Source: Psammoneis japonica (lineage: Eukaryota). From it: a DNA stretch of 64,000 nt. The translations under genes and the position numbers were made by a program. Within the stretch, counting starts at the first letter, position 1. The number at the start of each line of letters is the position of its first letter. The stretch covers positions 496,001-560,000 of the forward strand of contig QPGO01000004.1 of the NCBI GenBank assembly GCA_008632985.1, written 5' to 3'. The notes under the pieces were generated by a model that saw only the letters and a program-made list of their open reading frames with translations, did no database searches and was not told where the DNA came from. This document shows positions 19,913 through 47,357 of this stretch, piece by piece.

Positions 19913-21159
19913 ATGAAGGAGTTGCTTTTGTTACTGTTGCTTCTCGTTGCCAATCATGGCGCTCATCCCTTTTGTACCACGTCGGTAGACTGTGCCATGA
20001 ATGGCGAGTGCGTGACTGCTGGGAAACGTGGCAAGAAGAAGTGCCGTTGTTTTCAAGGATGGAAGGGCAGAAACTGCGAAGAGCTCGATTTGTTGCCTGT
20101 CAAGGACGAACAAATGGGATTGAAGTTGCCAAATCGAACTTCTACGTGGGGCGGAGCCATTACCCATCATAACGGTACATGGCACATGTTTGCTTCCCAG
20201 CTGGTAAGCAAGTGCGGTCTGGAGTGTTGGACTAGCAACAGTCAGGTAGTTCGAGCCACTTCCAAACATTACCTGGGTCCCTACTCCATTCAAGATATAA
20301 TTCTTGAACCATTTGCCCACGAGCCAAGTATCCTGATAGCACCCACTGGAGAAATCGTCTTGTTGGTATTAGCCCAAGAGGGAGTCGAACCGAGAGATTG
20401 TACAGACAACCCTCCACCACTGCATAGTCCGCCATTGACTCGACCAACTCCGAGGAACACTTACATGATGTGGTCAAACCAACCAGAAGGCCCGTGGTCC
20501 GATCCAGTTTTAGTTTTCAACAGTACAATATGGAACTCAGATTATTGGTCGAGGTACAACGTAACCACCGAATGCGATTCTAATTTGAATGGAATCATTT
20601 TGCCCAACGGAACTTTGCTAGGTTTATGGAGACGTTGTGAAACACCAGACCTTCATACGATTCCTCATGTAATCGTGGCTAGCAACTGGAAAGATCCATC
20701 CACCTATCAACCGCGGACGGATCCAATCTTTGTACTGGGTGGGGCAGGCACAGAAGATCCTAGCAATATCTGGACAACAACGACCAAAGACATGGGTACA
20801 GCGTATCACGCGCTGTTTCATGACGAGCAATACACTCGGTGTATGGAACCCACCGGTTGTTCCGCCAACGGTCGACATGCCTTTTCCCTAAATGGTATCT
20901 CTTGGCGATATTCATCTGTGGATGCCTATGGGCAGACGTCAACTTTACAACCGCAACGGGCAAAAGCTACGTTCGACATGTGACTGGAGCGCGGGCTAGA
21001 CCTCATGTTGTTTTGAACGACAGAAACGAACCAGTCGCATTATCTACCGGCTTTCAACAACACCAGGAGTCAGGATATGTCTGGACATGTGTGCAAGAGT
21101 TGCGACAAAAGAAGGGTCTAGAAAATGACCAAGGGCTGCAACTAGAGAAACGTGGTTGA
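19913..21159 (+). CDS. Secreted EGF-like + beta-propeller glycoside hydrolase (GH43-like); one apparent frameshift near 20930
   Basis: Signal peptide; CxxxxDCxxNGxC...CxCxxGWxGxxC; STWGGAI, WHMFAS, GPYS, FAHEPSI, GPWS, EDP. The C-terminus (RARPHVV...LSTG) is in the next frame (ORF 20839-21159). Confidence 0.65.
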
Positions 21160-21297: not shown

Positions 21298-24200
21298 TCA
21301 CGGCAACGAATGCTGCCGGAAGAAACTCATTGTAGTTTCATTGTAATAAGGGTAATTCAACGGTACCTGATGGTCATTCTGCCCGGTACCGTAGTTGCTG
21401 TGAAGAACAAAAATGTTGGGCTCCTCGCAATCCACGTCGGTAAATGTGCCGAGTGTCCTGATAGTGTCCTTGTACGCTGAACCGGTCGCTCGCTGGCATC
21501 CGTTTATGCGAAACCACCAGTCACTTACATCACCAGTACCAGAGACACGCGAGTCGTACTGTCCTTTCATTGTTATCATCGGCACCGCCCGTTCACAGTC
21601 TTCGGGGACGATTGGCGGGTACAAGTTGTAATACCCTGGATAACCATCGAAAAAATGAGGGCTGTTGGACGCAACAGAAACGGACGCAGCAATTTTGTCC
21701 CCACGAGAACAGGAGAGAGCGCTTGTCATGTCGCCACCCCAGCTTTGTCCTGTGACAAAAACATGCTTAAGATTGATGCACAGGTCGTCCGACACATCAT
21801 CAAGGATATCGTCGAAGAAAATGAAGTCATCGTTGTCGTTCCTTTGCCCAGTCACCCAGCCTTCGACGGCATTCGAGCCCGTCCATCCCCACATTGGCCA
21901 ATCCCGACGCAGAGCATAGGGGTATACAAAAATGGCATTGTCTGCATAAGAAGTCTCTTCCAGCTCTAAATAACCTCTCATCCAGTCTCCCCTCCATCCA
22001 ATGCCATGATATCCAATCACCAGATCATAACTCTTGAACCGGTCGTAACTGGTAGGAACAGACAGATGGTAAGTCCGCGACACACCGCCCGATACAATAA
22101 CAGTGTCCCGCTGTCCTTCCGCCACAATTTTGCCGCACCCCGGTGAACTTGTACTTGGGCTTGAAGGACTTCTCGTAGGCGGCAAAGTAGGTTGAAGGTT
22201 AGGCTGTGGCAGTGGAGTGGGCGACGGCGACGGTACATTTCCCGTCGATCCGTTCAATTCGATGGAGACGTTGTCGACATACAAATCATTCCATTCATAT
22301 CCGCTACAAACGAAGCGAAGCCGAAAGTTACTTGTGAAGTACTGCGAGGGAATAGGCACAGAAAAGAGTTGCTCGGATTCACCAATCGCGCTCAGTCGAT
22401 CATAGTTTTGCCCATCTGAAGATACCTGCACTTCAGCTACTCCAGAGCTTGACAGAGAAGCTCTAGAGTCAAACGAAACAGAAGCCGAAATGGCACCTGC
22501 CAGGTTGGCTCCTCGATCCGACCACACCACCTGAAACCAACTCTTGCTCCCGAGTAAACGCAAACAGTCGCCCTCTTTACACCAGCCTGACATTGACTGA
22601 ACATATACTCCAACACTCGAATCACCAGTCCAACTGCCGGACCAGTCCAGGGATCCAATATTACCGTTGAATCCGGAGTCAAAGTTATCCGCGTAGTCAT
22701 TCGCCTGCGACAAACGAGGAGTGGGCGCAAGCGTCGGTGGATTCGTGGGGTCAGCTGTTGGCTGTGTCGCCGCAGACGAGGGTGCTGGTGTGGAGGTAGG
22801 TGGGGGTGGAGTGGGCGACGTAGTCGGTACATTTCCCGTCGAGCCGTTCAATTCGATGGAGACGTTGTCGACGTATAAATCATTCCAATCATATCCGCTG
22901 CAAACGAAGCGAAGCCGAAAGTTACTCGTGAAGTACTGCGAGGGAATAAGCAGAGAAAAGAGTTGCTCGGATTCACCAATTGTGCTCAGTTGATCATAGT
23001 TTTGCCCATCTGAAGATACCTGCACTTCAGCTACTCCAGAGCTTGACAGAGAAGCTCTAGAGTCAAACGAAACAGAAGCCGAAATGGCACTGGCCAGGTT
23101 GGCACCTCTATCCGACCACACCGCCTGAAACCAACTCTTGCTCCCGAGTAAACGCAAACAGTCGCCCTCTTTACACCAGCCTGACATTGACTGAACATAT
23201 ACTCCAACACTCGAATCACCAGTCCAACTGCCGGACCAGTGAAGGGATCCGATATTACCGTTGAATCCGGAGTCAAAGTTATCCGCGTAGTCATTCGCCT
23301 GCGACAAACGAGGAGTGGGCGCAAGCGTCGGTGGATTCGTGGGATCAGTTGTTGGCTGTGGCGTCGCAAACGAGGGTGCTGCTGTGGAGGTAGGAGTGGG
23401 TTCAACTCCGCTGCTTGTAACATCAATCCTAACGTCGTCAATGTACAAGTCATTCCAGTCATATCCTTGGACCATGAAGCGAAGCCGAAAGCCTGACGTG
23501 TAGAATTGAGATGGGATAATGAAGGTGCGGTATCCCTCGAGATTCGATCCTATATCCTCTAGATTCTCACCAATCTGCGACCAAGTTCCCGGTGCTCCAT
23601 CGCTTCCACTGACGTAAACCGAACCATGTCCATCCTCAAAGAAAGCTTGAAAATGAAATGATAGCGAAGCTTGAGTAGCTCCTTCCAAACTTGCACCACG
23701 GTCACTAAGCGCCGTCTCGTAGGAATTGTCTGAAACAATTAATCGGAGACAGTTTGCCGCCAAGCACCAACCCTGCATCGACTCAATTCGCACTCCCGGA
23801 CCTTGAGACCACGCATCTGCCCACATGTAGCTTCCGTCATTTCCTGTTTCGCCGGTACTGCCTTGACTCGAAGTGTCAAAATCATCTGCAAATGTTCCAT
23901 CAAGCATTGTTAACTTAGGCTGAATATCCTTTATTTCAACATTGTCCACAAAGAGACTTGTCCCCTCTGTAGCTCGGAAACGCACAGCAAACTCGGACGT
24001 CAAATAGGCTGATTCGATGTCAACAGATATTAGTCCGCTAGTGCCAACAGCAAGGGTAGCAACCTTGACCCATCCCAATGAACTCTTGAAGTGAACCTTG
24101 GCAGAACTTCCGGAACCAACCAGATGGTAGTCGAACGTGAGCTTGATGCTGCTGGACGAGGAGAAGCTGCTCAGGTCAGCTTTGCGCTTGGTAGTAGAGG

Positions 24201-24468
24201 AAGTCCTTTCGACATCATTTGGCGAAATCTTGAGGCAATGCGATCCACTACTGCAATAGATGCTATCATTGACGAAAAAAATCCCATTGCTGTTGCTGCC
24301 TGACCACCTTGAACTCCAAGATTCCGAGCCATCATGCCCGTGTGCACCGCTGTGGCCCCCGTTGATTGCGTCAAAGTCATCGGCGAACAACGGTGTAGCC
24401 AAAGCGGAGTGGCCTATTGCTACAACTAGCAGCAAGACTGCCAGACACATCATGCCATTCCTTCTCAT
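21298..24468 (-). CDS. Secreted protein with four jelly-roll/MAM-like beta-sandwich repeats, P/T linkers and a C-terminal alpha/beta-hydrolase (PHB-depolymerase / CE1 esterase-like)
   Basis: Signal peptide; repeats D(D/N)FD...CxxxxCL...F.LRF...LY.D(N/D)V; catalytic region RTYHLSVP, LVIGYHG, DDFIFFDDI, VFVTGQSWGG (GxSxG), G.YD, DHQ. Confidence 0.8.
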   Translation of the reverse strand: MRRNGMMCLAVLLLVVAIGHSALATPLFADDFDAINGGHSGAHGHDGSESWSSRWSGSNSNGIFFVNDSIYCSSGSHCLKISPNDVERTSSTTKRKADLSSFSSSSSIKLTFDYHLVGSGSSAKVHFKSSLGWVKVATLAVGTSGLISVDIESAYLTSEFAVRFRATEGTSLFVDNVEIKDIQPKLTMLDGTFADDFDTSSQGSTGETGNDGSYMWADAWSQGPGVRIESMQGWCLAANCLRLIVSDNSYETALSDRGASLEGATQASLSFHFQAFFEDGHGSVYVSGSDGAPGTWSQIGENLEDIGSNLEGYRTFIIPSQFYTSGFRLRFMVQGYDWNDLYIDDVRIDVTSSGVEPTPTSTAAPSFATPQPTTDPTNPPTLAPTPRLSQANDYADNFDSGFNGNIGSLHWSGSWTGDSSVGVYVQSMSGWCKEGDCLRLLGSKSWFQAVWSDRGANLASAISASVSFDSRASLSSSGVAEVQVSSDGQNYDQLSTIGESEQLFSLLIPSQYFTSNFRLRFVCSGYDWNDLYVDNVSIELNGSTGNVPTTSPTPPPPTSTPAPSSAATQPTADPTNPPTLAPTPRLSQANDYADNFDSGFNGNIGSLDWSGSWTGDSSVGVYVQSMSGWCKEGDCLRLLGSKSWFQVVWSDRGANLAGAISASVSFDSRASLSSSGVAEVQVSSDGQNYDRLSAIGESEQLFSVPIPSQYFTSNFRLRFVCSGYEWNDLYVDNVSIELNGSTGNVPSPSPTPLPQPNLQPTLPPTRSPSSPSTSSPGCGKIVAEGQRDTVIVSGGVSRTYHLSVPTSYDRFKSYDLVIGYHGIGWRGDWMRGYLELEETSYADNAIFVYPYALRRDWPMWGWTGSNAVEGWVTGQRNDNDDFIFFDDILDDVSDDLCINLKHVFVTGQSWGGDMTSALSCSRGDKIAASVSVASNSPHFFDGYPGYYNLYPPIVPEDCERAVPMITMKGQYDSRVSGTGDVSDWWFRINGCQRATGSAYKDTIRTLGTFTDVDCEEPNIFVLHSNYGTGQNDHQVPLNYPYYNETTMSFFRQHSLP
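22231..23380. repeat. Near-identical 594-bp intragenic tandem duplication (198 aa)
   Basis: cggtacatttcccgtcga occurs at 22231 and 22825, and the two units align with few substitutions. Confidence 0.92.
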
Positions 24469-24814
24469 CCTCTTCTATTGTCAGCTTGCCGTGGATACAC
24501 TCACATTTTTCTTTTTTTCTTTTTTGGTTTGGAACCTCACTGGCGTTTTCTCGGTCACATGCCCGATGGACAATGCCAGTGATAAAGATTCTTGAGATGC
24601 CCAAGACCCGATTATAACATCTACTGTTAAAATGAGACCAGCGCACCAGCCAAGCACAACAAGCCATTCTGGTTTGACTGCCATTCCAAGCATTCGAATG
24701 GAGATTGAAGGTCCATTCTCTCTCTCCATTGAGCCATTGCAACTGTGACCCATTCAACATTCTGTGCAATTGGAAACTCACTCTCCACAACTCACAACAA
24801 GAGTCTGTGGACTC

Positions 24815-27800
24815 TGACAGGATTTGAACAAGATTTTAGTTTGTCACACACAATTGTGTGTGCTCTTGGTTCCGAGTGCGTCGCGCGATGTAGTTTGCTT
24901 TCGAGCCACTCGGCTCATAAGAATAACAACAGCAGCACCGACATCACGACACCAGTCTTTTGGCTCCTTGGCGGTCTCTGCACGGAGACTCATCTGCTGT
25001 TTAGACAGCAGCAAGGAGTCATTGTTTTCTTCCACCCAGTCATCTTCATTTTCGCTTTGGGTCCCCAGCTTGCACCTGGCTGCTCACCCTGATGTGCATG
25101 TGCTTTGTGCTCAACCACACAGCATCGCCAAGCTCCACTGGCGTGCCCCCACTGAGGTGCTGTCTGGCTCCACTCCCGACATCAGCCCGCTCCTCCGCTT
25201 TCAATGGTGGGAACCCATGCACTGCCACCTGGATGATTCCGACTGGCCACCCAAATCCCGTGAATTGTGTGGTCACTTCGTTGGCATCGTTGGTCACCAA
25301 ATGACGTTCAAGATTCTTTCTGATGACACTCAGAAGATTCTCTGCCGTTCCAACGTGCACTCCACCCGTGATCCGTCTGCGCTCCAAACCTGCGTCTTGA
25401 TCCTCCTGACAAGAAATCTGCTGAACCTGTCATTAAACCCTGCCACAACTCCAAGGATTTGCCAGATTTGCCAGATGGGGAGGTGATCAGGATGTCCAAA
25501 ATGCCCGTTTTTGACCCCGAGGATGTCACAGGACGCACCTTCCTCATGAAGCCACAAGAGGATGGACAATGCCACATGGCCCGCATTGTCAAAGCCGTTG
25601 AGGACCACGACTGGAAAATCAGAGACAATCCTGAACTGGTCAAGTTCATTTGCTCCATCAACAATGACAAACATGAGGAAGTCCTGGCCTGCAATGACAT
25701 CATGCACCACATTGAGCAAGAAGACGAGGACACCACCCTCTGGAAGTTCCGACACATCGCATCGCACGAAGGACCATTGTGACCCCATGATCCCTCTTGG
25801 AAAGGCTCAAGCTGCGGACATCATGCTTGAACAGGAGAATGGGGAGATCACGTCCGAACCCCTTGCCATCATTGCCAAGGATGACCCCATCACCTGTGCC
25901 ATCTGCGCGTGTGAGCATGGCCTTCTAGAAATCGAAGGATGGAGATGTTTTTGCAAGGCGGCCCTTCGTCAGAAGCAGCCATTCCGCATGGCCAACCAAG
26001 CCAAGTTGTGCTCCTTTCGCACTGCGCCACAATGCAAGCACGGGCATGAAGTGCTGCGGGACTGCAAGCATGCCATGGCCCTTGATGAGCGCAATGGCAA
26101 CCGCAAGTGGGGAGACGCAACGGACCTCGAGATGACTCAGCTTGATGAGTGCGAGGTCTTCCACGACTGCGGACACCACAACGATTCCAGTGCTCCATCA
26201 GGACACAAGAAGATCCAGGTGCATCTCATCTGTGATGTCTGGCATGACGGATGGCACAAAGCAAGGCTTGTTGCCAATGGACACCTCACAGACGTGCCCA
26301 TCGACAGTGTCTGTTCCGGAGCAGTGTCTCTCCGTGGCCGCGAATGATGATCTTCCTGGCCGAACTCAACGAACTAGAGACCTGGGCCACTGACATTGGG
26401 AATGCCCACCTCAAAGCTGCAACCAAGGAGAAACTGCACATTGCAGCAGGCCCCAAGTTCAGCAACCTGGAAGGACACATCCTTGTCATCCACAAGGCCT
26501 TGTGCGGACTCCGCAGCTCCGGCCTCAGATGGCATGAACGCTTTGCTGATTGCTTGCATGCCGAAGGCTTCTTCCCATGCAAAGCTGAACCCAACATCTG
26601 GCTGCACAGGAATGGTGACCACTGCGAACACGTGGCAGTGCATGTGATTGACCCAGCCTTTGCTGTGAAGGACCCCCAGGCTTTTGCAGACACCCTCATG
26701 GAGAAACACAAGTTCAAGCTCAAGGGCACTGGACCATTGGAGTTCCATCTTGGCTGCAACTTCACCCGTGACCCAGATGGCACCCTGTGCCTTGCTCCCT
26801 GCAAGCACATTGAGCGCATGGTTGACAACCGCGCATGTCTCTTTGGGGAGAAGCCCCGCACTGATGTGCTTTCACCCGTTGACAAGGGTGACCACCCTGA
26901 ACTTGACACCTCCGAATTGCTCAAACTGGAGGGCATCCACCAACTCCAATCCTTGATTGGATCCCTGCAATGGGCCATGTCTCTAGGTCACATCGACATT
27001 GCTGTGACTGTCCTGTCCCTGTCTGGCTTCCATGCAGTGCCCTGCCAAGGCCACTTAGACCGCGCCAAATGCATCCACGGATTCCTCTCCAAGATGCGTC
27101 ATGGCACCCTCTGAGTGCGCACCGAGGAGCCCGACTGTTTGGACCTCCCTGAGCCTGTGTGTGACTGGGCTCAATCTGTGTGTGGGGAGGTAGAAGAGCT
27201 GCTCCCACAAGATGCACCCAAGCTGCTTGGCAAGTTCGTCACCACCACACACTGTGTTGATGCAAACTTGTTCCATTGCATGCTCACTGGACGCTCTGTC
27301 ACTGGCATCCTCCATTTCCTCAACAAGTTTCCGGCTGATTGGTTCTCTGAGAAACAAGCAACAGTTGAGACTGCTGCATGTGGATCCAAGTTTGTTGCCG
27401 CAAGGACGTGCGTTGAGCAGATCATTGATCTGTGCATCACTTTGCCTTTGCGTCACCTTGGCATTCCCATTCGTGAAACATGTCACATGTTTGGGGACAA
27501 CAAGTCAGTTGTGGACAGTGCCACCATCCTGCACTCCAAGCCGCACAAGCGACACACTGCCCTCTTGTTCCATCGTGTGCGTGAGGCGATTGCCTCCAGT
27601 TTTCTCGAGTTTCATTTTGTCGAAGGCTCCCACAACCCGCTGACATCCTCAGCAAGCATTGGGGTCACTCCCAAGTCTGGAACCTCCTTCGTCCTCCAAT
27701 GTTTTGGAACTTCGACCCTGAGGCTTTCAACCAATCCAACTTCGAATCCATTGCTGTTGACCCCTCAAGCAAACTGGGGAGTGACAGGATTTGAACAAGA

Positions 27801-28026
27801 TTTTAGTTTGTCACACACAATTGTGTGTGCTCTTAGTTCCACGCGCATCGCGCGATGCAGTTTGCTTTCGAGCCACTCGGCTCACAAGAATGATGACAGC
27901 AGCACCGACATCATGACACCAGTCTTTTGGCTCCTGTGATGGTCTCTGCACAGAGACTCATCTGCCATTTAGACAACAGTGAGGAGTTGTTGTTTTCTTC
28001 CACCCAGTCATCTTCATTTTCTGTCA
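24815..28026 (+). mobile_element. Ty1/Copia (CoDi-like) LTR retrotransposon, copy 1; gag/protease deleted; pseudogenised INT-RT-RNaseH
   Basis: 5' LTR 24815-25053 is fused directly to integrase sequence. RT motifs HKARLVANG, DIGNAHL, KALCGLRSSG; RNaseH motifs VDANL, KQATVET, GDNKSVV. PPT aaactggggag, then 3' LTR 27782-28026 (TGACAG...CTGTCA). TSD GACTC/GACTT. Confidence 0.93.
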
Positions 28027-28372
28027 GACTTGCTGTGAGTCCGACACAGCAGCTGAGAACTCTTCACACCAGCCCTCTCCAGCCAAACACACCACCCCGG
28101 CCCATTCAAGAATGTCTTCTTTGTGCTCCTCTTGTGGTGTCATCAAAAGCAGCTCTGATGGACTGCTGGCAGCTGGGCATTTTAACACACTTTTCCTCTG
28201 TGCTGAAAAACACATGAGTGTGGCCAGCCAACATGGTGTGCTTGCTTTTTGGCATCTCAGCCCCAAAGACCCAATGATGATGTCTGAAGTCATCGGTGCT
28301 GGTGCAGTGTGGGCCATGCATGTTGAGCCATTTGGCTGCGATTTAAATGGAGATTGAAGGTCCCATCTCTCT

Positions 28373-31300
28373 TGACAGGATTTGAACAAAATGTTGGTTT
28401 GTCACACATGATTGTGTGTGCTCTTAGTTCCACGCGGGTCGCGCAAGATGTAGTTTGCTTTCGAGCCACTTTGGCTCACAAGAATGATGACAGTAGCACT
28501 GATGTCATGACGCCAGTCTTTCGGCTCCTGCAATGGTCTCTGCATGGAGACTCATCTGCCAATTGGACAGCAGCAAGGAGTCATTGTTTTCTTCCACCCA
28601 GTCATCTTCATTTTCTGTCAGATCAACAGTCTTGCTCTTTGTTGTCCATTGAGCGTTCATCATCGTCATCGAGAAATTTTCGACGACGCGCACCGTTGGT
28701 GGTGGAAGCACATGTCTACCTTCTTCACTGCTGTGTGCTGGATTAAATCCACATGTTTGGATTTGTCCAATGCCTCCCATCGTTGGACACATTCATTCAA
28801 CGGATGTTTGTTTGGCCAGGAATTCCCAAATTCTCAGACATCCGAGATTCTGGATTCCTTGCAGCGGATCCTGCCAATCCATCTGCTGGCGTCCACATGC
28901 ACACAATGTAAACCCCTGACTCTGGCTCTGCTCCACGCATGCCAAGTCTGCCACCTTGCATCCACACCAGATTGCTGGTCTTCTGCAGGCCTGCAAGGTC
29001 CACGAGGACAACTGTGAGAGGAAGCAGTTCGTGATTGCAGCCTGCGTTAGGGCAAGGGTGCATTTCCCATGTTTGTTCGTCCCTCCACAGCACCAAATTT
29101 GGCCGGCCTGATTGGGTCATCCAACCGACATAAAATGACAATGGTTCGGAGGTCTTGTCCACCTCTGGTTGGTTTGTCAGCAGGGGTTTTTAACCCATCA
29201 CTCCACTCTCAAGCAACCCAAAGTGCCACCAGCTGCGGGTTTGGACGTGCCGGCACAACTCCACAGACCGGATGGGAAGCTCAGCACTCAACTGTGAATG
29301 GGACATCACAGCCTGGCAGTTTCTGACTCTTGAGACAGTTCAAGACATCAAATCAAGATTCAAGTCAAGTTTCAAGTCATTTCAAGCCCACACTCTGATT
29401 CTGGCCAGTTCCGACATCCACCCAGTTGCAACATGGTTCTCACCAGGCAACAACAAATCAATGGCCTCAAGCACATTCTAGGCACTGTTCTGAATCAAGC
29501 TGCAGACAGTCCATTGCGCTCGCCCTCAACATTGATGGAACCGATTCGCATCAGGACCTTTTCACTTTTACTCCGATGCAATTGGATGCCCTTGTGTGCA
29601 ACGATGGCACCAATCAAATGCCCTTGCCATGTGGTTACAAAGCACAGACAGCTGTGCTGATTAGCCTGCACATGGCAAAAGTGCGTGGCGGCGCGGATGT
29701 TGGCAACGACCCTCAATTGTTCACACAAGAGGAGTTCACCAACTGTCATCTTAGTCCTGAGCATGTGGCGTCCCTCTCCATGGGTGCAGCACCATCTGCT
29801 CCCACTCTTGGCTCGTTGCCACCCAAACCACGTGATCCCATGTGTGACTTTAAACGAGGCATCAAATGTGACCCACTTGCCTTCGCGTTTCTCAAGTCTG
29901 ACAAACAGTGGCACATGTGGCACACCTCCATCATCGCACAGGCCCGCTCCCAAGACGTGCACGCATTCTCGATCCGACGCACAAGCCCTCTACAGCTGAG
30001 GACATGGCCCTGTTTGATGAACAACAGAAGCACATGTTCATAGTGTTTGAACAGATCTTGCAGAATGACAAAGGCAAGGCACTTGTTCGTCAACATGTCG
30101 GCTCCTCTGATGCTCAAGCGGTGTGTCGTGACCTCTCCAAGCATGCCCTTGCTTCCACTCGCGCATCCCTGGAGTCCTCGACCCTTCTCACGCACCTCAC
30201 CACTGCTTGCCTTGGTGATGGCACCTGGAAGGGATCCACTCATGCCTTCACACTTCACTGCAGGACCAGCTTTGCAAGCATGAAGCTCTTGTCCCGGGTG
30301 CGGACCATTTCTCTGCTGGCCAGAAACGTGCCATGCTTGAGAACGCAATTCATCCCATCGAAGAACTCCATTTGGTGAAGAATCAGGCTGATCAGTTCCA
30401 TGTGCAGAATGGAAAGGGGCTCTCTTACAAAGAGTGCTGTGGACTCCTGCTTTCTGCTGCAGCACAGCACGACAGCACGTTCACCCCCAAGATGGCTGCG
30501 AACATGACCTGGTTGAAGACAACATTCACAATCGTGGTGCCCCGTCCAAGCTCATCAGCAACCATGCTCAGGTTGAGATCACTTCTTGGCATCCTTCATG
30601 CCCTCTTCATCTCCAGTTGGCAAAGCAAGCCTCACCACCAGCTTCAGAATTTTGCTGAACGCCGCTGCCAAACTGTGAAGACCATGGCCAACACTGTCAT
30701 GGATCGCTTTGGGTCCCCGGCTTGCACCTGGCTTCTTGCCCTGATGTGCATGTGCTTTGTGCTCAACCACACGGTGTCCACCAAGCTCCACTGGCATGCC
30801 CCCGCCAAGGTGCTGTCCGGCTCCACTCCCGACATCAGCCTGCTCCTCCGCTTTCAATGGTGGGAACCCGTGTGCCACCACCTGGATGATTCCGACTGGC
30901 CGTCCAAATCCCGTGAATTGTGTGGTCACTTCGTTGGCATCGCCGAGCACGTTGGTCACCAAATGACGTTCAAGATTCTTTCTGACAACACTCAGAAGAT
31001 TCTCTGCCATTGCAATGTGTGCTCCGCCCGTGATCCGTCTGCTCCAAACCTGTGTCTTGATCCTCCTGACAAGAAATCTGCTGAACCTGTCATTAAATCC
31101 CACCACGACTCCAAGGATTCACCAGATTCACCAGATGGGGAGGTGATCAGGATGCCCAAAATGCCGGTCTTTGACCCCGAGGATGTCACAGGATGCACCT
31201 TCCTCATGAAGCCACAAGAGGATGGACAACGCCACAGAGCCCGCATTGTCAAAGCCATTGAGGACACGACTGGAAAATTGGAGACAATCCTGAACTGGTC

Positions 31301-33670
31301 AAGTTCATTTGCTCTGTCAACAATGATGAATGCGAGGAAGTCCTGGCCTGCAATGACATCATGCACCACATTGAGCAAGAAGACGAGGACACCACCCTCT
31401 GGAAGTTCCGACGAATCGCATCGCACGAAGGACCATTGCGACCCCATGATCCCTCTTGGAAAGGCTCAAGCTACAACGTCATGCTTGAACAGGAGAATGG
31501 GGAGATCACATCCGAACCCCTTGCCGTCATTGCCAAGGATGACCCCATCACCTGTGCCATCTACGCGCGTGAGCACGGCCTTCTAGAAACCGAAGGATGG
31601 AGACGTTTTTGCAAGGCGGCCCTTCGTCAGAAGAAGCCATTCCACATGGCCAACCAAGCCAAGTTGTGCTCATTTTGCACTGCGCCACAATGCAAGCACG
31701 GGCACGAAGTGCCACGGGACTACAAGCATGCCATGGCCCTTGATGAGCACAACGGCAACCGCAAGTGGGGAGACGCAATGGACCTCGAGATGACTCAGCT
31801 TGATGAGTGCAAGGTCTTCCATGACTGCGGACACCACAATGATTCCAGTGCTCCATCAGGACACAAGAAGATCCGGGTGCATCTCATCTGTGATGTCAAA
31901 CATGACGGACAGCACAAAGCAAGGCTTGTTGCCAATGGACACCTCACAGACGTGCCCATCAACAGTGTCTGTTCTGGAGCAGTGTCTCTCCGTGGCCTGC
32001 AAATGATGATCTTCCTGGCCAAACTCAACGAACTAGAGACCTGGGCCACTGACATTGGGAATGCCCACCTCGAAGCTGTGACCAAGGAGAAACTGCACAT
32101 CATGGCAGGCCCCGAGTTCAGCAACCTGGAAGGACACATCCTTGTCATCCACAAGGCCTTGTACGGACTCCGCAGCTCCAGCCTCAGATGGCATGAACTC
32201 TTTGCTGATTGCTTGCATGCCAAAGGCTTCTTCCCATGCAAAGCCGAACCCGACATCTGGCTGCACAGGAACGGTGACCACTGTGAATGCGTGGCAGTGC
32301 ATGTGGATGACCCAGCCTTTGCCATGGGACCCCCAGGCTTTTGCAGACACCCTCATGGAGAAACACAAGTTCAAGCTCAAGGGCACTGGACCATTGGAGT
32401 TCCATCTTGGCTGTGGCTTCACCCGTGACCCAGATGGCACCCTGTGCCTTGCTCCCCGCAAGCACATTGAGCACATGGTTGACAACTGTGCATGTCTCTT
32501 TGGGGAGAAGCCCCGCACTGATGTGCTTTCACCCGTTGACAAGGGTGACCACCCTGAACTTGACACCTCCGAATTGCTCAAACCGGAGGGCATCCACCAA
32601 CTCCAATCCTTGATTGGATCCCTGCAATGGGCCGTGTCTCCAGGTCACATCAACATTGCTGTGACTGCCTGTCCCTGTCTGGCTTCCGTGCAGCACCCCG
32701 CCAAGGCCACTGGACCAGCCAAACGCATCGCGGATTCCTCTCCAAGATGTGTCATGGCACCCTCCGAGTGCGCACCGAGGAGCCCAACCATTTGGACCTC
32801 CCTGAGCCTGTGTGTGACTGGGCTCAATCTGTGTGTGGGGAGGTAGAAGAGCTGCTCCGCAAGATGCACCCAAGCCGCTTGGCAAGTTCATCACCACCTC
32901 ACACTGCGTTGATGCGAACTTGTTGCATTGCATGCTCACTGGACGCTCTGTCACTGGCATCCTCCATTTCCTCAACAAGCTTCCGGCTGATTGGTTCTCT
33001 AAGAAACAAGCAACAGTTGAGACTGCTGCACATGGATCCGAGTTTGTTGCCGCAAGGACATGCATTGAGCAGATCATTTGTCTGCGCATCACTTTGCATT
33101 GCCTTGACGTTCCCATTCGTGAAACATGTGCATGTTTGGGGATGACAAGTCAGTTGTGGACAGTGCCACCATCCCGCACTCCAAGTTGCACAAGCAACAC
33201 ACCGCCCTCTCGTTCCATCATGTGCGTGAGGCGATTGCCTCTGGTTTCCTTGAGTTTCATTTCATCGAAGGCTCCCGCAACCCGGCTGACATCCTCAGCA
33301 AGCATTGGGGTCACTCCCAAGTCTGGAACCTCCTTTGTCCTCTAATGTTTTGGAACTTCAATCCCAAGGCTTTCAACCAATCTGACTTTGAATCTGTCAC
33401 TGTTGACCCCTCAAGCAAACTGGGGAGTGACAGGATTTGAACAAGATTTTAGTTTGTCACACACAATTGTGTGTGCTCTTAGTTCTGCGTGCGTCACGCG
33501 ATGTAGTTTGCTTTGAGCCACTCGGCTCACAAGAACAATGACAGCAGCACCAATGTCACGACACCAGTCTTTCGGCTCCTGTGATGGTCTCTGCATGGAA
33601 CTCATCTGCCATTTAGACAGCAGCAAGGAGTTGTTGTTTTCTTCCACCCAGTCATCTTCATTTTCTGTCA
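28373..33670 (+). mobile_element. Ty1/Copia (CoDi-like) LTR retrotransposon, copy 2; gag remnant, deletion near 30500, pseudogenised INT-RT-RNaseH
   Basis: LTRs 28373-28620 and 33428-33670; perfect TSD TCTCT; gag-like DFKRGIKCD...KQW...AQARSQDV and ILQNDKGKALVRQH; integrase PHHQLQNFAERR; PPT before the 3' LTR. Confidence 0.93.
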
Positions 33671-36066
33671 TCTCTCCATTGAGCTCTTGCAACTGTGACC
33701 CATTCAACATTCTGCAAAATTTAAACTCACTCCAAAACTCACAACAAACAATCTGTGAACTCGCTGCTGCAGCAGCACAAAACTCTTTGCCAGCCCTCTC
33801 CAGCCAAACACCACCCCAGCCCATTTGAAGGTGCTTTGTTTTGTTGCTCTTCTTGTGGTGTCAAAGCTCACTCAATCTCTGTTGATCTGTTGCAACTGTG
33901 ACCCATTCAAGAACATTCTGACCATTTACAAACTCATTCCAAAACTTGCTTGCAATCTGTCATTTGTTCATCGCAACAATCAAACTCTTCATCAGCCCAA
34001 ACACTCTCCTTTTTGAGGCAGCTTGCAGCATGTGCTGTGCTGACAACTGGCAAATGCCAGCTGTGTCTTGTGTCAAGAGGCTCCTGCAGCAAGAGATGCA
34101 TGACCCAAAAGCACATGTTGCACAGCTTTGTGCAAACACTTGCACTTCTTATTTTGCTGAGTGGGTGCATCACTTGACACATGATCTCCTGTCAACTGTG
34201 AGCAACTGCTTCACACAATGCAATCAGGATGGCACACTTGACTGGTGGTTCCTGCAGTTGTGCTTGGTGAGCAAAGGTTCTGCACAAAATGCTGTGCATT
34301 GTGCAGCATTCACTGAGAACAAGATGATCTTGGGGTGAAGCTCTCTGTTCTTGGATGAGGACATTCATGCGTGGGTGGCTGTGGAGCAAGTGTGTGCACC
34401 TTGCACAAGGTGCATGCCTTGCACATGTCTAGAAACACTTCACAGTGACGTGAGCCAACTCAGAAATGGAGGTTCTCAAAATTGGCAACAACAGCAAACT
34501 TTGCTGCTGTCCAGTGCCCACCCCATGCCTCAATTTGGCTCACAAGGCATGCTGATGTTGCCTCCCTTCAAGTGCACACAGAGAAACATTCTGTGAGAAA
34601 CTCAGCTGCCAAAACTGCACCTCTTGAACTGTCAACAACTGCTGCCAGCATGCTGAAGAAAAGGACAAAGCAACTGCTCATGCTTGTGCCATTGGAGGTC
34701 AGTGCTCTTGTGATGTTCAACAACAAACAATGCATGCAATCCACAGCAGGTCATTGTGCCCAGTCATCAGCAAAGCATTTGGTGCTTTGTGGCCCTTGTC
34801 ATGGGAACAGCATGCAGCCAGCATGCACTGTGCTGAAAACTGGCAGACACCAGCAATGTCTTGTGTCAAAAGGTTCTCTTGCAGCCAGAGACACATGACC
34901 CAAAAATTTGCATTTTGCAGGCCCACACATGCCCACGCTCATTTTGCTGAGTGAGTGCATTGATGTTGTCACATGTGTCAACAGCAAGTGATCTGCACCA
35001 CAAAGATTGTGCCCTCAACTGCCCTCCTCTTGAGTCCCACCAAATGAGCAAAGGCTCTGCCTGTGATGCAGTGCTGCGGCATTGTGCAACACTTGCTGAG
35101 AGCCAAGATGAACTTGGGGGGTGAAGTTCTTTGTTCACAGATGAAGACATTTGTGTGCACACACAACACGAAGGCGCGCACATCATGCGGCCAAACATTT
35201 CACAGCAATGTCATGAGCCAACTTAAAAACAGTTCTCACAATTGGAAACAATGGCAAGCTTTGCTGCTGCTCACAAAATCCATCTCCCAATTTGGTGCTC
35301 TGGGCAGGCTCTTTTGTTTGTGCACTCTTGTCACATCATGAAAAGCAGCTCTGAGAGACTGCTGGCAGCCTGGCACTTTCACACTTCCTCTGCACCAAGA
35401 AAGACATGAGGGTGGCCAGTCAACATGATGGTCTTTGCTTTGACACCAGCCAAATCAGCACACACAGGGCCCTGCTCCTGGCTTGGCCAAAAAAGCCTTG
35501 AGCCGCAAGTCATGAGCATTCTCTTGTTGAGAGCTGAACCAGGAAAATGGAATTGAGACTCTGGTGCACACTCAAGCTGCTGAAAATGGGGAAAACAGTG
35601 ATCATGATGAATGAATGACAAAAATTCCTGACAACCCGATGGGCTTCAATGAAAGTTGATGCCCCCCACCCCCACCCAGCAAAGGGGCACAGTGTTGATG
35701 GTTCCTGAGCAGCACCCAACAAAGAGAGGACAACAGCATGTTCTCCTGTCTGAAGTCGCTGACTTGTTGACATGTTGTGGTCAACTTGAAACATGCCGCG
35801 TTCGAGAATGTGAGGAAAGCAAATCTGGCACTACACTCTCTCCAGTCGTGCTTGTGTGGAGCACCGGAATGCACTGCACCTACGAACGACCACGACTGGA
35901 AAGCCGACCATTGTGAAATTGTGTTGACGACACGCGTCAATCATTGCAGCAAAAACACACAATTGCGGGGCGCCTTTCACAAATTTAAGGGCGTGCTTAC
36001 CCTAGAAACGCACACCAGCTCCTCACATAAACTCCAAAACTACAGTGAACAAATTATCACAAAAGG

Positions 36067-36258
36067 ATGAAGCTGCAGCTGCGTTTTTTCCTGTTGCTTC
36101 TTCTTGCCAATGATGGTATTTACCCATTCTGTATCACATCGGTGGACTGTCACATGAATGGAGAGTGTGAGACTGCTGGGAAACTCGGTAGGAAGAAGTG
36201 TCGTTGTTTTCCAGGATGGACCGGCAGTCACTGCCAAAAGCCCACTTTATCAGATTAA
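36067..36258 (+). pseudogene. Truncated 5' copy of the GH43-like gene (signal peptide + EGF-like domain only)
   Basis: PFCITSVDCHMNGECETAGKLGRKKCRCFPGWTG versus PFCTTSVDCAMNGECVTAGKRGKKKCRCFQGWKG in the gene at 19913; similarity stops at ~36240. Confidence 0.8.
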
Positions 36259-36487
36259 TCCGGACAAGCAGGTGTGATCGATCTACTTTGCACAAGGGTC
36301 TACTACTTTATTACTCTCTAGAGAAGATCTATGGCCCCACCCTACGGTGCTCTCTCAAGCTATCATACTACTCTTTTATGAAGGCATCCACACGACTTAT
36401 CTATGACTACGCATACTCTCCAAGTTCCATTGACCGGACATGAAAGTAGTTGTTAATGACTCGAGCTTTTCTACCGTCTGTGATTTT

Positions 36488-44396: not shown

Positions 44397-44579
44397 TCTT
44401 CATTCAGAACTTTCCTTCTGACTCCTGACTGAAACAAATACGCAACATGAAACAAGATAGCAGATTGGAGATACCAGCAGCAGACGACGACGCGACGTAC
44501 GACGACGACTCTGGATGAGCGAGTGCCGGCCGCGGCCGCGCCGCCCGCCGTTGGCTGGCGTCGTCAGTCTTGCTTTCGT

Positions 44580-47100
44580 TCGATGCACCCATTGGTCGCA
44601 GGTCAGGCCAGAATTGCAGAGGTTCCAACTGAAACATGGCCATGACAGCTGCTGCTGGTAAGCTGCTGAGCTGCTTCTGGAAAACTGTGCAACAAGAACC
44701 TTGTGAATGTGCCAGCAGCAATCAATCACATGCTTGAGATGAGGGCATGACCGACAAGGGCAATGACGACAAAAATGATTCCCTCCGCCAGCGCAGCGCT
44801 TTTGACATTGTTGTTGCAGCTGAGTGAGGAATTTGCTGATGTGAAAAACAGCCAAAATTCAAAATGTTTTCATTGAGGCCAACCCCAACCGAGCAAAAAA
44901 AGAAAATGAAAAAGACGAAATGGCTCGAAAAGCTCGAACTCACCCGGATTTTCACCCTCGACTCTTTTTCAACTCGGCCGAAACGAAAAAAGAGTCCGAC
45001 TCTTTTTTCACAAACCCGGAAGTGTGAAAAAAGAGAAAAGAGTGATGTGGGCCGCATGCTGTCACACAATTCGTGCATGCGTCTTGGTTTGCGTAGGACA
45101 CCAGCAAAGCAATCCAAAGTTCGCCTCACGCACCGCATCATCAAGTCGCCATGGCGGTCTGTGATTGTTTTTGATGACTTCTTTCAATGTCATGACTGTG
45201 TGAGTAACACCAGTTGATCATTTGAAGCAGACATGACATGTCTCTTGAAGGAGTTGGTGAAGCATGCAGCAGCTCTTCTGCAACAGACCTTTTGTCTTCA
45301 AATGATGTGGGTCTTGATGTGCATCATAGAAAGTCGACACATGAGGTCCCTAAAGTGGATCTTTGTGACACAGAAATGGCCACACTGACTGATTTAGATG
45401 CGACTTGTTCAATGGTGCTATTCTCACGCTGTTTGATTCTAGATTGGGGGCTCGAAATGGCCCGAGAAGTGCACAAAAACTTTCCACTTGACAACCACTT
45501 AAGTCATCCCACAAGCCTGTTGCATTTGCACTGAACAAAAAAAGAAATGGCACCCACCGACTGGGAAAAAATGGAGGTTCTCATGGTGTCACTCTCATTG
45601 TCATAAGGCAGAACTTCGATGCCGTTGTGGTCGTCATCTTCATTGTCGTGTGAGGCCTCTCGCTTTGCTTGTCATCAGCATGCCCAAGACACCCGGATGT
45701 TTGGCTTTTTAATTTTCACGCCGGCTGGGTCACCAAAACGACAAAATGAAAAAAGAGTTGAGGTTGGCTCTTTTTCATTTTCTTTTTTCGCTCGGCTGGG
45801 GTTGGCCTGAGGATCCATTTCTCTGAAATCCACAGTGACTTGACACATGACCAGCGGCGAGATTTCCAATTGAGTGCAAAGCTCTTCATGAGCGGGCTCT
45901 CAAATTCAGTGTTCTCACCTGTTGGTTTCTTGTGTCACAGCCAGAAAATGGCAAATCAGGCAGTGTTTTCATCCCCCAAATCTCATGTTTTGGGTGTCCA
46001 AAATCTTTCTCCTGCACAGCTCACAGTGGTGCAGTGCACACCTTGCTGTGGAGGGTGCTTTTTTTCACACTGCTGGGCACCACAATGCAAACCCAAACCC
46101 GCTGCTTGCACAAGGCATTCCACACAAATCACACCAGAAAATGTGCAGATCTGGCAACAACCAACATTGTCGGTGCATCAACACCACAGCCTCACACTGT
46201 CCACAGACGTTTTCAAACTTGTTGTGGAATCGTGGGCACAGCATTGGAGCAGAAAGAGCCAGCAGTCATTTCATGCTCAATTTTGTCCAAGAGTGAACAA
46301 CTGCAAATTGTCGCTTTTTCAGTGATGTGTGTCATTGATTGTTGTCATGTGCTCAGATCTGCTGCACCTTGCAAGCAAAATGACATGGAAGCAAATGTGT
46401 CTTTCCGTTGCAGCTTGCAACAGCATTGTCTTTCTTGTTGTGGTGTAGCCATTGTTTCTGTCATTTGCATGAAATGTCTTTTTGCTTTTTGCAAAAAATG
46501 TGCTCACTCTTGGACTGGGCTCTTTCTCTTGATCATGCCGGTTTTCAGCCGATGTGATGCCTTGGCTCTGGCCCTGTCAACTGGTGTCCGCACGAGATGT
46601 GGTTCGACCACAGCTCTTAGACAATTTGTGGCAGACGCAGTCTGGGGTCTTGTTTTTTGTTGGTGATCACAGCTTTGTGAGTTTTTTTTTTAAATTTCTA
46701 GATGGTTGCATTGAATTTTGCTGCTTGGGCGGATTTGAGTGCACTGGAGATGCCCTGTTGGTTGCATCACATTTTGAAGGCAGGGTGCTGCAAGAATGTG
46801 AGTGTTTTTCTTTCACTCAGCTCACAGCCTCACCCAAATGGTCACACTTCATGCAGGATTCAGCAAAAAGAGTGCAGTTTTGGCTTGCTGTTTGTTAAAA
46901 GATGCGCGTCAATCAAGCTGTGCTGAGCACTTCTTGCACCTGTCAACATGAGCTCGCCTGGTGCCACCACACATGGCTGGAAACAGTGTCGCAGTGACAA
47001 CAGAATGGGAGAAATGCCTTCTTGGACAGCAATGGCATCATTGGCACCATTGTGCATCACGACAGCATCGTCAACACACTCCTGATTTGGTGTTGAGCTC
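44580..47100. repeat. Second TpA-depleted repeat island; contains the Harbinger-like element and unclassified decayed sequence
   Basis: Near absence of TA and excess TG/CA; translations are Cys/His-rich and Tyr-poor in all frames. Confidence 0.7.
44877..45807. mobile_element. Non-autonomous TIR element (PIF/Harbinger-like), 3-bp TSD TGA
   Basis: TGA|GGCCAACCCCAACCGAGCAAAAAAAGAAAATGAAAAAGA at the left end, and its near-perfect reverse complement ending ...GGGGTTGGCC|TGA at the right end. Confidence 0.8.
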
Positions 47101-47357
47101 TCTACAAAAACACATGCACGCAGCATTCTACTCTAATGCACCAGTGCACGATGAACCCTCAATCGGACCGTTTTTTCTCCACGCAGAGGCTGAAGATGGT
47201 GAGTGTCACACCCGTGCTCGTATCCTGAGCTACAGCACGCATAATGCGACAGCGCTCATCGTTCCGCCTTTTTGGGGTGTGAGGACAAGAAGGAAGAGAA
47301 TAACAGCAGTGTACTTGTGCTTCAATTGAGCGTTCTACCCACACGACGCCAAAAAAA

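What the first reader, a model, noticed from the sequence alone, without database searches (positions are those of the whole stretch)
24625..35900. Repeat-restricted TpA->TpG/CpA hypermutation: a candidate reverse-RIP genome-defence process
Seen: TA dinucleotides almost vanish in the repeat island but are common in neighbouring genes. Copia tyrosines have become Cys (TGY) or His (CAY): KHGHEV, LICDV, IGNAHL, KALCGL, HCVDA. Sister copies polarise the change. Copy 2 keeps TA at 31472, 31562, 31721 and 32162, where copy 1 has TG (25813, 25904, 26063, 26503). The Tyr codon of the ETATYGS-type motif reads TGT in copy 1 (27379) and CAT in copy 2 (33031). One LTR site is TA in LTR1 (24924), TG in LTR2 (27891) and CA in LTR4 (33536). 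One palindromic TpA resolving to either TG or CA means A->G on either strand of the chromosomal duplex; reverse-transcription error or RNA editing would be strand-biased. CpG->TpG/CpA decay co-occurs, as established for 5mC. Established: fungal RIP does the opposite (CpA/TpG->TpA), and 5mC deamination cannot give A->G. Inference: a heterochromatin-targeted adenine deamination, or error-prone repair at TpA, that inactivates transposons. I do not know of a published description, but I could not search.
Basis: partly seen in the sequence, partly recalled or inferred. Interest (0 to 1): 0.95.

Follow-up and report, generated by a model that had tools for sequence, protein, structure and literature searches.

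The report
Diatom transposon nest with TpA hypermutation
A nest of dead Copia retrotransposons in a diatom genome has lost about nine in ten of its TA dinucleotides to TG or CA on both DNA strands, the same rare mutation signature recently measured in a distant alga, which points to a DNA-editing defence against selfish DNA.

Summary
Window 24629-35985 holds 55 TA (observed/expected 0.083) and 44499-47102 holds 16 (0.089), against 0.55-0.59 elsewhere. CpG is halved and TG/CA nearly doubled.

Polarity comes from an outgroup of 53 intact homologous polyproteins. At conserved Tyr columns the two Copia copies keep 4 of 70 Tyr; 27 became Cys and 26 His. A->G after C, G or A is 7 of 341.

The change is therefore TpA-specific and equal on both strands. 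It is also post-integration: LTRs and duplicated copies differ by TA/TG/CA states, and non-Copia spacer DNA is equally depleted.

New here: surviving TA depend on the base 3' of the A. Survival is 0.41, 0.11 and 0.008 for 0, 1 or 2 strands reading TAY.

Nearest named homologues of a neighbouring gene are all diatoms.

The signature is not unpublished. A 2026 preprint measured TpA->TpG/CpA hypermutation in Bigelowiella natans. I found no diatom report. A 602-bp tandem duplication in the neighbouring gene is untouched, so "repeat-induced" is not supported.

The enzyme is unknown; an adenine deaminase is my inference. No genome was held.

The parts
24629..35985 (.). Island 1: TA-depleted, CpG-halved, TG/CA-enriched domain with sharp edges
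   Evidence: 55 TA in 11357 bp, O/E 0.083; CG 0.447; TG 1.81; CA 1.61. TA positions are dense up to 24628 and again from 35986.
24815..25053 (+). LTR1 (5' LTR of truncated Copia copy 1)
   Evidence: About 240-bp repeat, 85.7-90.8% identical to the other three LTRs; aligned in A1.
25054..27781 (+). Copy 1 internal region, 3' half of the Copia polyprotein (homolog P0001 residues about 957-1850), frameshifted
   Evidence: tblastn HSPs in three frames; Pfam RVT_2 E = 1.5e-11. 0 of 32 conserved Tyr kept, 14 Cys and 12 His.
27782..28021 (+). LTR2
28022..28372 (.). Spacer between the two elements, not Copia, also TA-poor
   Evidence: TA only at 28183 and 28344. Parts resemble 33770-33863 and 35314-35441.
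28373..28615 (+). LTR3 (5' LTR of copy 2)
28616..33427 (+). Copy 2 internal region, with an internal deletion (P0001 residues about 278-890 absent), frameshifted
   Evidence: tblastn; Pfam RVT_2 E = 1.1e-14. 4 of 38 conserved Tyr kept, 14 His and 13 Cys.
33428..33665 (+). LTR4 (3' LTR of copy 2)
   Evidence: Differs from LTR3 at TA/TG sites (A1 columns 23, 192) and TG/CA flips (columns 37, 159, 210).
33666..35985 (.). Non-Copia tract of the island, most decayed part, no recognisable protein
   Evidence: 33749-35884: 6 TA (O/E 0.043), CG O/E 0.151. No Pfam family below E = 0.01 in 7 ORFs. One 5416-bp X1 contig at depth 58 covers 33644-38000 with 10 other letters.
44499..47102 (.). Island 2: second TA-depleted tract, content unknown
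   Evidence: 16 TA, O/E 0.089; CG 0.554; TG 1.62; CA 1.68. No Pfam hit in 9 ORFs. No atlas family, best score 0.79.

Best explanation
A silenced nest of Copia-type LTR retrotransposons, together with the non-coding DNA between and beside them, in a diatom chromosome has undergone a DNA-level, post-integration hypermutation. This process turns TpA into TpG or CpA, that is, A:T to G:C at the palindromic TpA, on either strand independently.

It runs fastest where the A is followed by a pyrimidine (5'-TAY-3', or 5'-RTA-3' read on the other strand). It stops sharply at the neighbouring genes. Ordinary 5-methylcytosine decay (CpG to TpG/CpA) acts on the same domain, so both self-complementary YpR dinucleotides drain into TG/CA. 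The result destroys Tyr codons and inactivates the elements.

Shown: polarity, TpA specificity, strand symmetry, action after integration or duplication, the sharp domain, and the 3' context effect.

Inferred: it is the same kind of process as the TpA hypermutation measured in Bigelowiella natans. The agent is an enzyme, most likely a TadA/ADAT-like adenine deaminase working on DNA of silent chromatin, and it serves as genome defence.

My odds: about 0.85 for the DNA-level targeted TpA process, and about 0.4 for adenine deamination as its chemistry.
For: Polarity. 53 intact homologs (1800-1960 aa; all 120 listed have 2.9-5.0% Tyr) define conserved Tyr columns. The window copies keep 0 of 32 and 4 of 38. 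Replacements are Cys (TGY) 27 and His (CAY) 26 of 70. In the LTR alignment, TA stands in 3 of 4 LTRs against TG or CA in the fourth at columns 23, 53, 79 and 192.

Specificity (Fisher P = 3e-17 and 7e-13):
- A->G at codon position 2 after C, G or A: 7 of 341.
- T->C at codon position 1 before T, G or C: 3 of 166.
- No reverse flow: His->Arg 0 of 49, Gln->Arg 0 of 26, Trp->Arg 0 of 34.

After integration:
- At 32 Tyr columns shared by both copies: 15 same outcome, 6 discordant Cys/His, 3 Cys against Tyr, 8 others.
- LTR3 and LTR4 of one element differ at such sites.
- Spacer and non-Copia tract are as depleted as the elements.

Context:
- Survival of TA is 0.405, 0.114 and 0.008 for 0, 1 and 2 strands with TAY, duplicated parts left out (29, 24 and 1 residual TA; chi-square P = 7e-12).
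- A per-strand additive model fits all 10 context classes. Exponents by 3' base: T 2.61, C 1.53, G 0.57, A 0.28.
- Outcomes at TA-versus-TG/CA sites fit editing of the A in TAY: CTAC->CTGC three times, GTAG->GCAG once.

Controls:
- 80 of 80 related metagenome Copia loci keep 59-100% of conserved Tyr (median 86%) and have TA O/E 0.35-1.15.
- The tandem duplication in the gene is unaffected.

Reads. A 31-mer contig of run X1 at depth 58 carries the TA-poor single-copy tract with 10 differences in 4357 bases.

Precedent. The B. natans preprint reports 230 of 231 de novo mutations in two viral regions as A->G or T->C, all on TpA, with TpA-poor CDS enriched in reverse transcriptase and DDE families.
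Against: - One window only. No genome was held, so there is no genome-wide map, no family-wide tally and no search for a deaminase.
- The two copies share ancestry, so counts pooled over them are not independent and the P values are too small.
- The survival analysis takes the TA context density of neighbouring genes as the starting state and rests on 54 residual TA.
- The test of His against Cys by preceding base goes the predicted way but is not significant (P = 0.17).
- Runs X1-X3 come from one sample, perhaps the one the window was assembled from. Their platform is not on record, so they are not independent confirmation of the bases.
- No modification, chromatin or rate data exist for this organism.
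- The chemistry cannot be read from sequence: A->G on one strand equals T->C on the other.
Confidence: 0.55

Rival explanations
1. Same targeted TpA process, but the chemistry starts at the thymine. The T of 5'-RTA-3' in silent DNA is enzymatically modified (for example by a TET/JBP-type hydroxylase giving 5hmU or a derivative). It is then mispaired or misrepaired to C, giving T->C on either strand.
For: Sequence cannot tell A->G from T->C at a palindromic TpA. The context effect reads equally as RTA. A TET/JBP thymidine hydroxylase whose product marks and silences transposable elements is described in dinoflagellates, another SAR lineage (PMC11572971, title, abstract and passages seen).
Against: The passages I read give no evidence that 5hmU causes T->C ('mispair' 0 occurrences). 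No TET/JBP gene or 5hmU is known to me for this organism, and this could not be tested. That 5hmU prefers TpA in dinoflagellates is my recollection, not from a call.
Confidence: 0.15
2. No dedicated editor. Frequent T:G mismatches from 5mC deamination in the methylated domain recruit patch repair with an error-prone polymerase (Pol eta-like, WA hotspot), which writes A:T->G:C changes nearby.
For: TpA loss and CpG decay share exactly the same domain. The WA (TA/AA) A->G hotspot of Pol eta is recalled from the somatic hypermutation literature, not from a call.
Against: ApA is barely touched: Lys->Arg 7 of 82 and Asn->Ser 0 of 33, against Tyr->Cys 27 of 70. TpA loss is more complete (about 85-90%) than CpG loss (about 50%), although CpG loss would be its trigger. 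Related metagenome elements show deep CpG decay without TpA loss, for example L078 with CG O/E 0.03 and TA 0.58.
Confidence: 0.1
3. Base-calling or assembly artefact on modified DNA: the true sequence has TA.
For: Long-read callers can err systematically at modified motifs. The platform of the assembly and of runs X1-X3 is not on record.
Against: A 5416-bp contig of exact 31-mers at word depth 58 from run X1 spans the single-copy TA-poor tract and its normal flank, with 10 other letters and 4 gaps. Noisy or strand-conflicting calls would not give this. The copies also carry frameshifts, a large deletion and Arg->Cys/His decay. The same signature was measured with Illumina in another alga.
Confidence: 0.03
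4. Editing before integration: ADAR-like A-to-I editing of the element's RNA, or deamination of its cDNA, copied into the genome at transposition.
For: ADARs favour a U 5' of the edited A (stated in the preprint's discussion). Editing of LTR retrotransposons by APOBECs is known in vertebrates (PMC4866542, search listing only).
Against: - Both strands are hit equally (27 Cys against 26 His).
- Non-element DNA is equally depleted.
- The LTRs of one element and the two duplicated copies differ at TA/TG/CA sites.
- The favoured 3' base is a pyrimidine, whereas ADAR favours 3' G by my recollection.
Confidence: 0.02

Closest known systems
TpA->TpG/CpA hypermutation of integrated giant-virus and virophage DNA in Bigelowiella natans (Mettrop et al., bioRxiv 10.64898/2026.01.13.699255; abstract, all of Results and Discussion, and term passages read)
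   Same: Almost only A:T->G:C transitions. All fall on TpA, giving TpG or CpA according to strand. The process is confined to foreign or selfish DNA beside normal genome. The long-term trace is TpA-poor, CpA+TpG-rich 1-kb clusters, and TpA-poor CDS are enriched in reverse transcriptase and DDE families.
   Different: - Host is a diatom (Stramenopila), not a chlorarachniophyte (Rhizaria).
- Target here is an LTR-retrotransposon nest, near saturation (TA O/E 0.08, against 0.45 for their NCLDV region).
- CpG decay co-occurs here; their main text reports no CpG decay (sections read; 'methylat' passages).
- Rates were measured there and are only inferred here.
- The 3' pyrimidine preference found here is not in their main text ('trinucleotide' and 'context' 0 occurrences).
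Repeat-induced point mutation (RIP) of ascomycete fungi
   Same: A mutational genome defence that riddles selfish DNA with one class of transition in a dinucleotide context and leaves a dinucleotide-skewed island beside normal genes.
   Different: RIP is C->T (the preprint's discussion, and the abstract of PMC7296669 in the listing). It mainly hits CpA and so creates TpA (recalled); here TpA is destroyed. RIP is triggered by duplication, whereas here a 602-bp 94.7% tandem duplication is untouched and a tract with single-copy depth is hit.
5-methylcytosine decay of CpG-methylated transposable elements in diatoms (DNMT5a-dependent methylation; PMC9998398, passages read)
   Same: CpG O/E of about 0.45 only inside the island, and Arg (CGN) -> Cys/His/Gln/Trp at conserved columns.
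   Different: It explains only the CpG half. It cannot remove TpA. Related elements show it without TpA loss.
ADAR (RNA) and APOBEC (cDNA) editing of retroelements in animals
   Same: Deaminase-made hypermutation that disables retroelements. ADAR has a 5' U preference.
   Different: Those act on RNA or on single-stranded cDNA and leave a strand-biased trace. Here the trace is strand-symmetric, extends outside the elements, and continued after integration.
5-hydroxymethyluracil marking of transposable elements in dinoflagellates (PMC11572971, abstract and passages read)
   Same: A SAR-lineage system that chemically targets A:T pairs of transposable elements in DNA.
   Different: It is an epigenetic mark with no reported T->C outcome in the passages I read. 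No such base is known here.

Membership tests
TpA hypermutation of foreign DNA (Bigelowiella natans type) | Changes are almost only A:T->G:C transitions | tested here: met
   Tyr->Cys/His in 53 of 70 conserved columns. TA ancestral by 3 of 4 LTRs at 4 sites. Reverse flow His/Gln->Arg 0 of 75.
TpA hypermutation of foreign DNA (Bigelowiella natans type) | Restricted to the TpA dinucleotide | tested here: met
   A->G after C, G or A: 7 of 341. T->C before T, G or C: 3 of 166. At TpA: 27 and 26 of 70.
TpA hypermutation of foreign DNA (Bigelowiella natans type) | Both TpG and CpA products (either strand) | tested here: met
   27 Cys against 26 His. TG 1151 and CA 1262 in island 1.
TpA hypermutation of foreign DNA (Bigelowiella natans type) | Confined to foreign or selfish DNA beside normally evolving genome | tested here: met
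   Two islands with edges sharp to about 100-200 bp; flanking genes have TA O/E 0.55-0.59. The content of island 2 is unknown.
TpA hypermutation of foreign DNA (Bigelowiella natans type) | De novo rate about 1000-fold above background, in bursts | not testable with these tools
   Needs mutation-accumulation or pedigree sequencing. Here there is only the hint that TpA loss (85-90%) exceeds methylated-CpG loss (about 50%).
Fungal RIP | C->T transitions that create TpA | tested here: not met
   TpA is destroyed, not made.
Fungal RIP | Triggered by sequence duplication | tested here: not met
   The 602-bp, 94.7% tandem duplication at 22206-23401 has TA O/E 0.62 and 16 transitions to 16 transversions. 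Tract 33749-35884 has single-copy word depth.
5mC deamination decay | CpG->TpG/CpA with CpG depletion limited to the methylated domain | tested here: met
   CG O/E 0.447 inside and 0.95-1.00 outside. Arg->His/Cys/Gln/Trp. Methylation itself was not measured. This is a co-occurring process, not the explanation of TA loss.
ADAR-type RNA editing fixed by retrotransposition | A->G on the transcribed (sense) strand only, within the element | tested here: not met
   Strand-symmetric and extending into non-element DNA.
Pol eta-type WA-motif mutagenesis | A->G at both TA and AA | tested here: not met
   Lys->Arg 7 of 82 and Asn->Ser 0 of 33, against Tyr->Cys 27 of 70. The motif definition is recalled.
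Copia (Ty1/copia) LTR retrotransposon | RVT_2 reverse transcriptase flanked by direct LTRs | tested here: met
   Pfam PF07727 E = 1.1e-14 and 1.5e-11. Four LTRs of about 240 bp. Collinear with 1800-1960 aa polyproteins. Integrase and protease domains were not separately tested.

The most novel reading that the evidence does not exclude
Diatoms and chlorarachniophytes share an enzyme-driven genome defence. It edits the adenine of 5'-TAY-3' on each strand of silenced foreign DNA independently (a DNA adenine deaminase guided by chromatin or small RNA). It would be either an ancient SAR-wide counterpart of fungal RIP or a system spread by gene transfer. It erases Tyr codons and TAA/TAG stops, and it makes LTR-divergence dating invalid in these genomes.
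Probability: 0.35. Interest if true: 0.85.

Novelty: new member of a known kind. Interest (0 to 1): 0.66.

Why it matters
Only one targeted A:T->G:C hypermutation of chromosomal DNA turned up in my ten literature searches, in one rhizarian alga, in a 2026 preprint. Finding the same signature near saturation on retrotransposons of a diatom would mean three things.

1. The process is not a curiosity of one species. It occurs in a major, ecologically dominant and partly genetically tractable group.
2. It acts on transposons as well as integrated viruses.
3. It has an extended motif (TAY, acting per strand). That gives biochemists a concrete substrate and gives the preprint's authors a prediction testable on their 231 de novo mutations.

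In practice, such islands inflate LTR-based insertion ages, because 35 of 49 variable LTR columns lie in YpR dinucleotides. They keep long false ORFs because TAA and TAG are erased. They also hide elements from homology-based annotation.

Tried and rejected
- Whole genome: none held. So there was no genome-wide dinucleotide map, no alignment of all family copies and no deaminase, TET/JBP or DNMT search.
- Expression: no RNA holder listed.
- Run X2 has no cover between 24493 and 36130. A part without cover is no evidence, so I draw nothing from it.
- The summed word depth of X1 over the Copia part is 5,745-47,377, against 50-94 on the flanks, with 10,382 contigs laid. This suggests a multi-copy family, but the tool warns that it is no copy number.
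- Only 40 of about 800 variant rows were shown, so no family-wide spectrum could be made.
- Other copies of the same family: protein searches 'longer' and 'near' gave no hit above 68% identity. The one metagenome scan gave 80 loci at 43-68% identity, none hypermutated. L045 has TA O/E of about 0.2-0.45 but is not among the 12 lowest loci for conserved Tyr, so it keeps at least 76%. I read it as codon usage.
- Non-Copia tracts: no Pfam family below E = 0.01 in 16 ORFs, no atlas family and no tandem repeats.
- His against Cys outcome by preceding base: predicted direction, P = 0.17.
- Earlier notes of this scan: nothing on this genome or signature.
- Literature, ten searches: no paper combines diatom with TpA, CpA and TpG. 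Subscription journals are not covered.
- Intrinsic composition or foreign origin of the element: rejected by the Tyr test and by normal Tyr content in 240 of 240 listed homologs.

Full report
OBSERVATION

The island is real and extreme. In 1-kb bins TA observed/expected falls to 0.03-0.17 from 25001 to 36000 and to 0.07-0.14 from 45001 to 47000. All other bins lie at 0.29-0.85.

With edges set from the list of TA positions, island 1 is 24629-35985. It has 55 TA (O/E 0.083), CG 0.447, TG 1.81 and CA 1.61. Island 2 is 44499-47102, with 16 TA (O/E 0.089). The rest of the window has TA 0.55-0.59 and CG 0.95-1.00.

At the background O/E, island 1 would hold about 378 TA; Poisson P = 6e-96.

ANATOMY

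Four LTRs of about 240 bp lie at 24815, 27782, 28373 and 33428.

- Copy 1 (LTR1 to LTR2) holds only the 3' half of the polyprotein.
- Copy 2 (LTR3 to LTR4) lacks the part matching residues about 278-890 of the intact homolog P0001.
- Both copies are frameshifted and both hit Pfam RVT_2.
- 25052-28026 and 30704-33670 are 92% identical over 2987 columns, and some flank similarity continues beyond the LTRs. The two copies therefore probably arose by segmental duplication of an already damaged element.
- The spacer 28022-28372 and the tract 33666-35985 are not Copia and have no recognisable protein, yet they are as TA-poor as the elements.

POLARITY

53 intact homologous polyproteins (1800-1960 aa, about 60% identical, from metagenomes) served as an outgroup.

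- At columns where at least 70% of them have Tyr, copy 1 keeps 0 of 32 (14 Cys, 12 His). Copy 2 keeps 4 of 38 (14 His, 13 Cys).
- Most other residues are kept at roughly 65-95%.
- All 240 listed homologs have at least 2.4% Tyr. The window ORFs have 0-1.0% Tyr, 4.0-4.5% Cys and 5.9-8.2% His.
- In the LTR alignment, TA stands in three LTRs and TG or CA in the fourth at four sites.

The direction is therefore TA to TG/CA.

SPECIFICITY AND SYMMETRY

| Change | Context | Count |
|---|---|---|
| A->G, codon position 2 | TpA | 27 of 70 |
| A->G, codon position 2 | after C, G or A | 7 of 341 |
| T->C, codon position 1 | TpA | 26 of 70 |
| T->C, codon position 1 | before T, G or C | 3 of 166 |

- Fisher P = 3e-17 and 7e-13. 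These are overstated because the copies share ancestry.
- 27 Cys against 26 His shows no strand bias.
- His/Gln->Arg is 0 of 75 and Trp/Cys->Arg is 0 of 48. CpG is therefore a source, not a sink.
- Conserved Arg was kept in 48 of 85 columns, and most replacements are His, Cys or Gln. This is the expected 5mC decay.
- Between the copies, 174 of 194 transitions lie within TA/TG/CA/CG dinucleotides, and there are only 16 transversions.

EXTENDED MOTIF (new here)

I left out duplicated parts and took the TA context density of the rest of the window as the starting state.

- Surviving TA are 29, 24 and 1 for sites where 0, 1 or 2 strands read TA followed by a pyrimidine. That gives survival of 0.405, 0.114 and 0.008 (chi-square P = 7e-12).
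- 0.114 squared is 0.013, close to 0.008, as expected if each strand is hit independently.
- An additive per-strand fit reproduces all ten context classes. Loss exponents by 3' base are T 2.61, C 1.53, G 0.57 and A 0.28.
- Which base changed at the polarised sites fits editing of the A in TAY: CTAC->CTGC three times and GTAG->GCAG once.
- The Tyr-codon version of this test is in the right direction but not significant (P = 0.17).
- Counts are small and come from one window.

WHEN AND WHERE

At the 32 Tyr columns present in both copies:

- 15 share the same product.
- 6 are discordant (Cys against His).
- 3 are Cys against Tyr.
- 8 show other replacements.

Part of the process therefore preceded the duplication and part followed it.

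LTR3 and LTR4 of one element differ at TA/TG sites and by TG/CA flips, and 35 of 49 variable LTR columns lie in YpR sets. Non-element DNA is equally affected. Together with strand symmetry, this places the process on chromosomal duplex DNA after integration, over a domain rather than an element.

Two points argue against duplication as the trigger:

- A 602-bp tandem duplication (94.7% identical) in the gene 1.2 kb to the left has TA O/E 0.62 and 16 transitions to 16 transversions.
- Tract 33749-35884 has the word depth of single-copy flanks.

READS

Three coded runs of one sample hold the stretch.

- A 5416-bp contig of run X1 at word depth 58 covers 33644-38000 with 10 other letters and 4 gaps. 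High-accuracy reads therefore carry the TA-poor sequence.
- Its few differences inside the tract include CG against TG twice, TA against CA once and a TG against CA flip.
- The platform is not on record, and the sample may be the source of the assembly, so this is weak independent support.

ORGANISM

The named nearest homologues of the neighbouring arginyl-transferase gene are all diatoms, at 30-42% identity. The best unnamed hit is at 45%. The window is not Bigelowiella.

COMPARISON WITH WHAT IS KNOWN

A preprint (bioRxiv 10.64898/2026.01.13.699255) reports, from mutation-accumulation lines of B. natans:

- two integrated viral regions with rates of about 6e-7 per site per generation;
- 230 of 231 mutations being A->G or T->C, all on TpA;
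- TpA-poor, CpA+TpG-rich clusters elsewhere in the genome;
- TpA-poor CDS enriched in reverse transcriptase and DDE domains;
- an ADAT2-like candidate deaminase.

Its main text does not mention diatoms or any context beyond the dinucleotide.

The present island meets four of the five features that define that phenomenon. The fifth, a measured rate, cannot be tested here.

- It fails the defining features of RIP: opposite direction, and no duplication trigger.
- It fails those of RNA or cDNA editing, which would be strand-biased.
- It fails those of a WA-motif polymerase signature, because ApA is spared.

Among 80 related elements from metagenomes none shows the signature, while several show CpG decay alone. 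The two processes are therefore separable.

MECHANISM

The shown steps are listed above. The enzyme is inferred.

I favour an adenine deaminase acting on DNA, at about 0.4. The 5' T matches the U33-A34 context of TadA/ADAT substrates, which is recalled. The preprint found an ADAT2-like candidate.

A thymine-directed route remains open. A TE-silencing thymidine hydroxylase exists in dinoflagellates (PMC11572971).

VERDICT

This is a genuine finding and a striking one. It is the second sighting, not the first. It adds a new lineage, a new target class and an extended motif for a process described in 2026.

Noticed in passing
window 22206-22807 and 22800-23401: A 602-bp tandem duplication (94.7% identical) inside the 1056-aa ORF 21298-24468 (no Pfam family). 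It has 16 transitions and 16 transversions and TA O/E 0.62. I used it as a control for the duplication trigger.
   Followed up: partly
window 33972, 34150, 34259-34260, 34449: In the tract with single-copy depth, the X1 contig differs from the window by CG/TG twice, TA/CA once and one TG/CA flip. These are possibly allelic differences carrying the same signature. The counts are too few to test.
   Followed up: partly
L078, L071, L020, L025, L026 (whole loci): Related metagenome Copia elements show deep CpG depletion (CG O/E 0.03-0.25) with ordinary TA (0.48-0.58). This is methylation decay without TpA hypermutation.
   Followed up: partly
L045 1-3500: A marine metagenome Copia contig has TA O/E of about 0.2-0.45 but is not among the 12 loci with the lowest share of conserved Tyr (at least 76% kept). 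It is probably codon usage, not hypermutation.
   Followed up: partly
window 24721-24814, 33671-33762, 33876-33946: A short unit of about 70-95 bp (78-85% identical) lies just upstream of LTR1 and twice downstream of LTR4. 28047-28142 resembles 33770-33863, and 28117-28248 resembles 35314-35441. The Copia copies sit in an older repeated matrix.
   Followed up: no
window 36077-36241 and 19920-20084: A 165-bp direct repeat (79% identical) lies on either side of the island, outside the TA-poor domain.
   Followed up: no
window 25531-33331 (run X3): The tiny run X3 (1,439 contigs, 0.16 million letters) shows cover only in bins of the Copia part (10 of 30 bins, 24671-33748). It laid 20 contigs there, none 99% or more alike. 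The library type is unknown.
   Followed up: no
window 13001-14000: A bin inside the 1356-aa Roc/trypsin-like gene has TA O/E 0.31 with TG 1.32 and CA 1.26, the lowest outside the islands and their edge bins. There is no long TA-free gap there.
   Followed up: no
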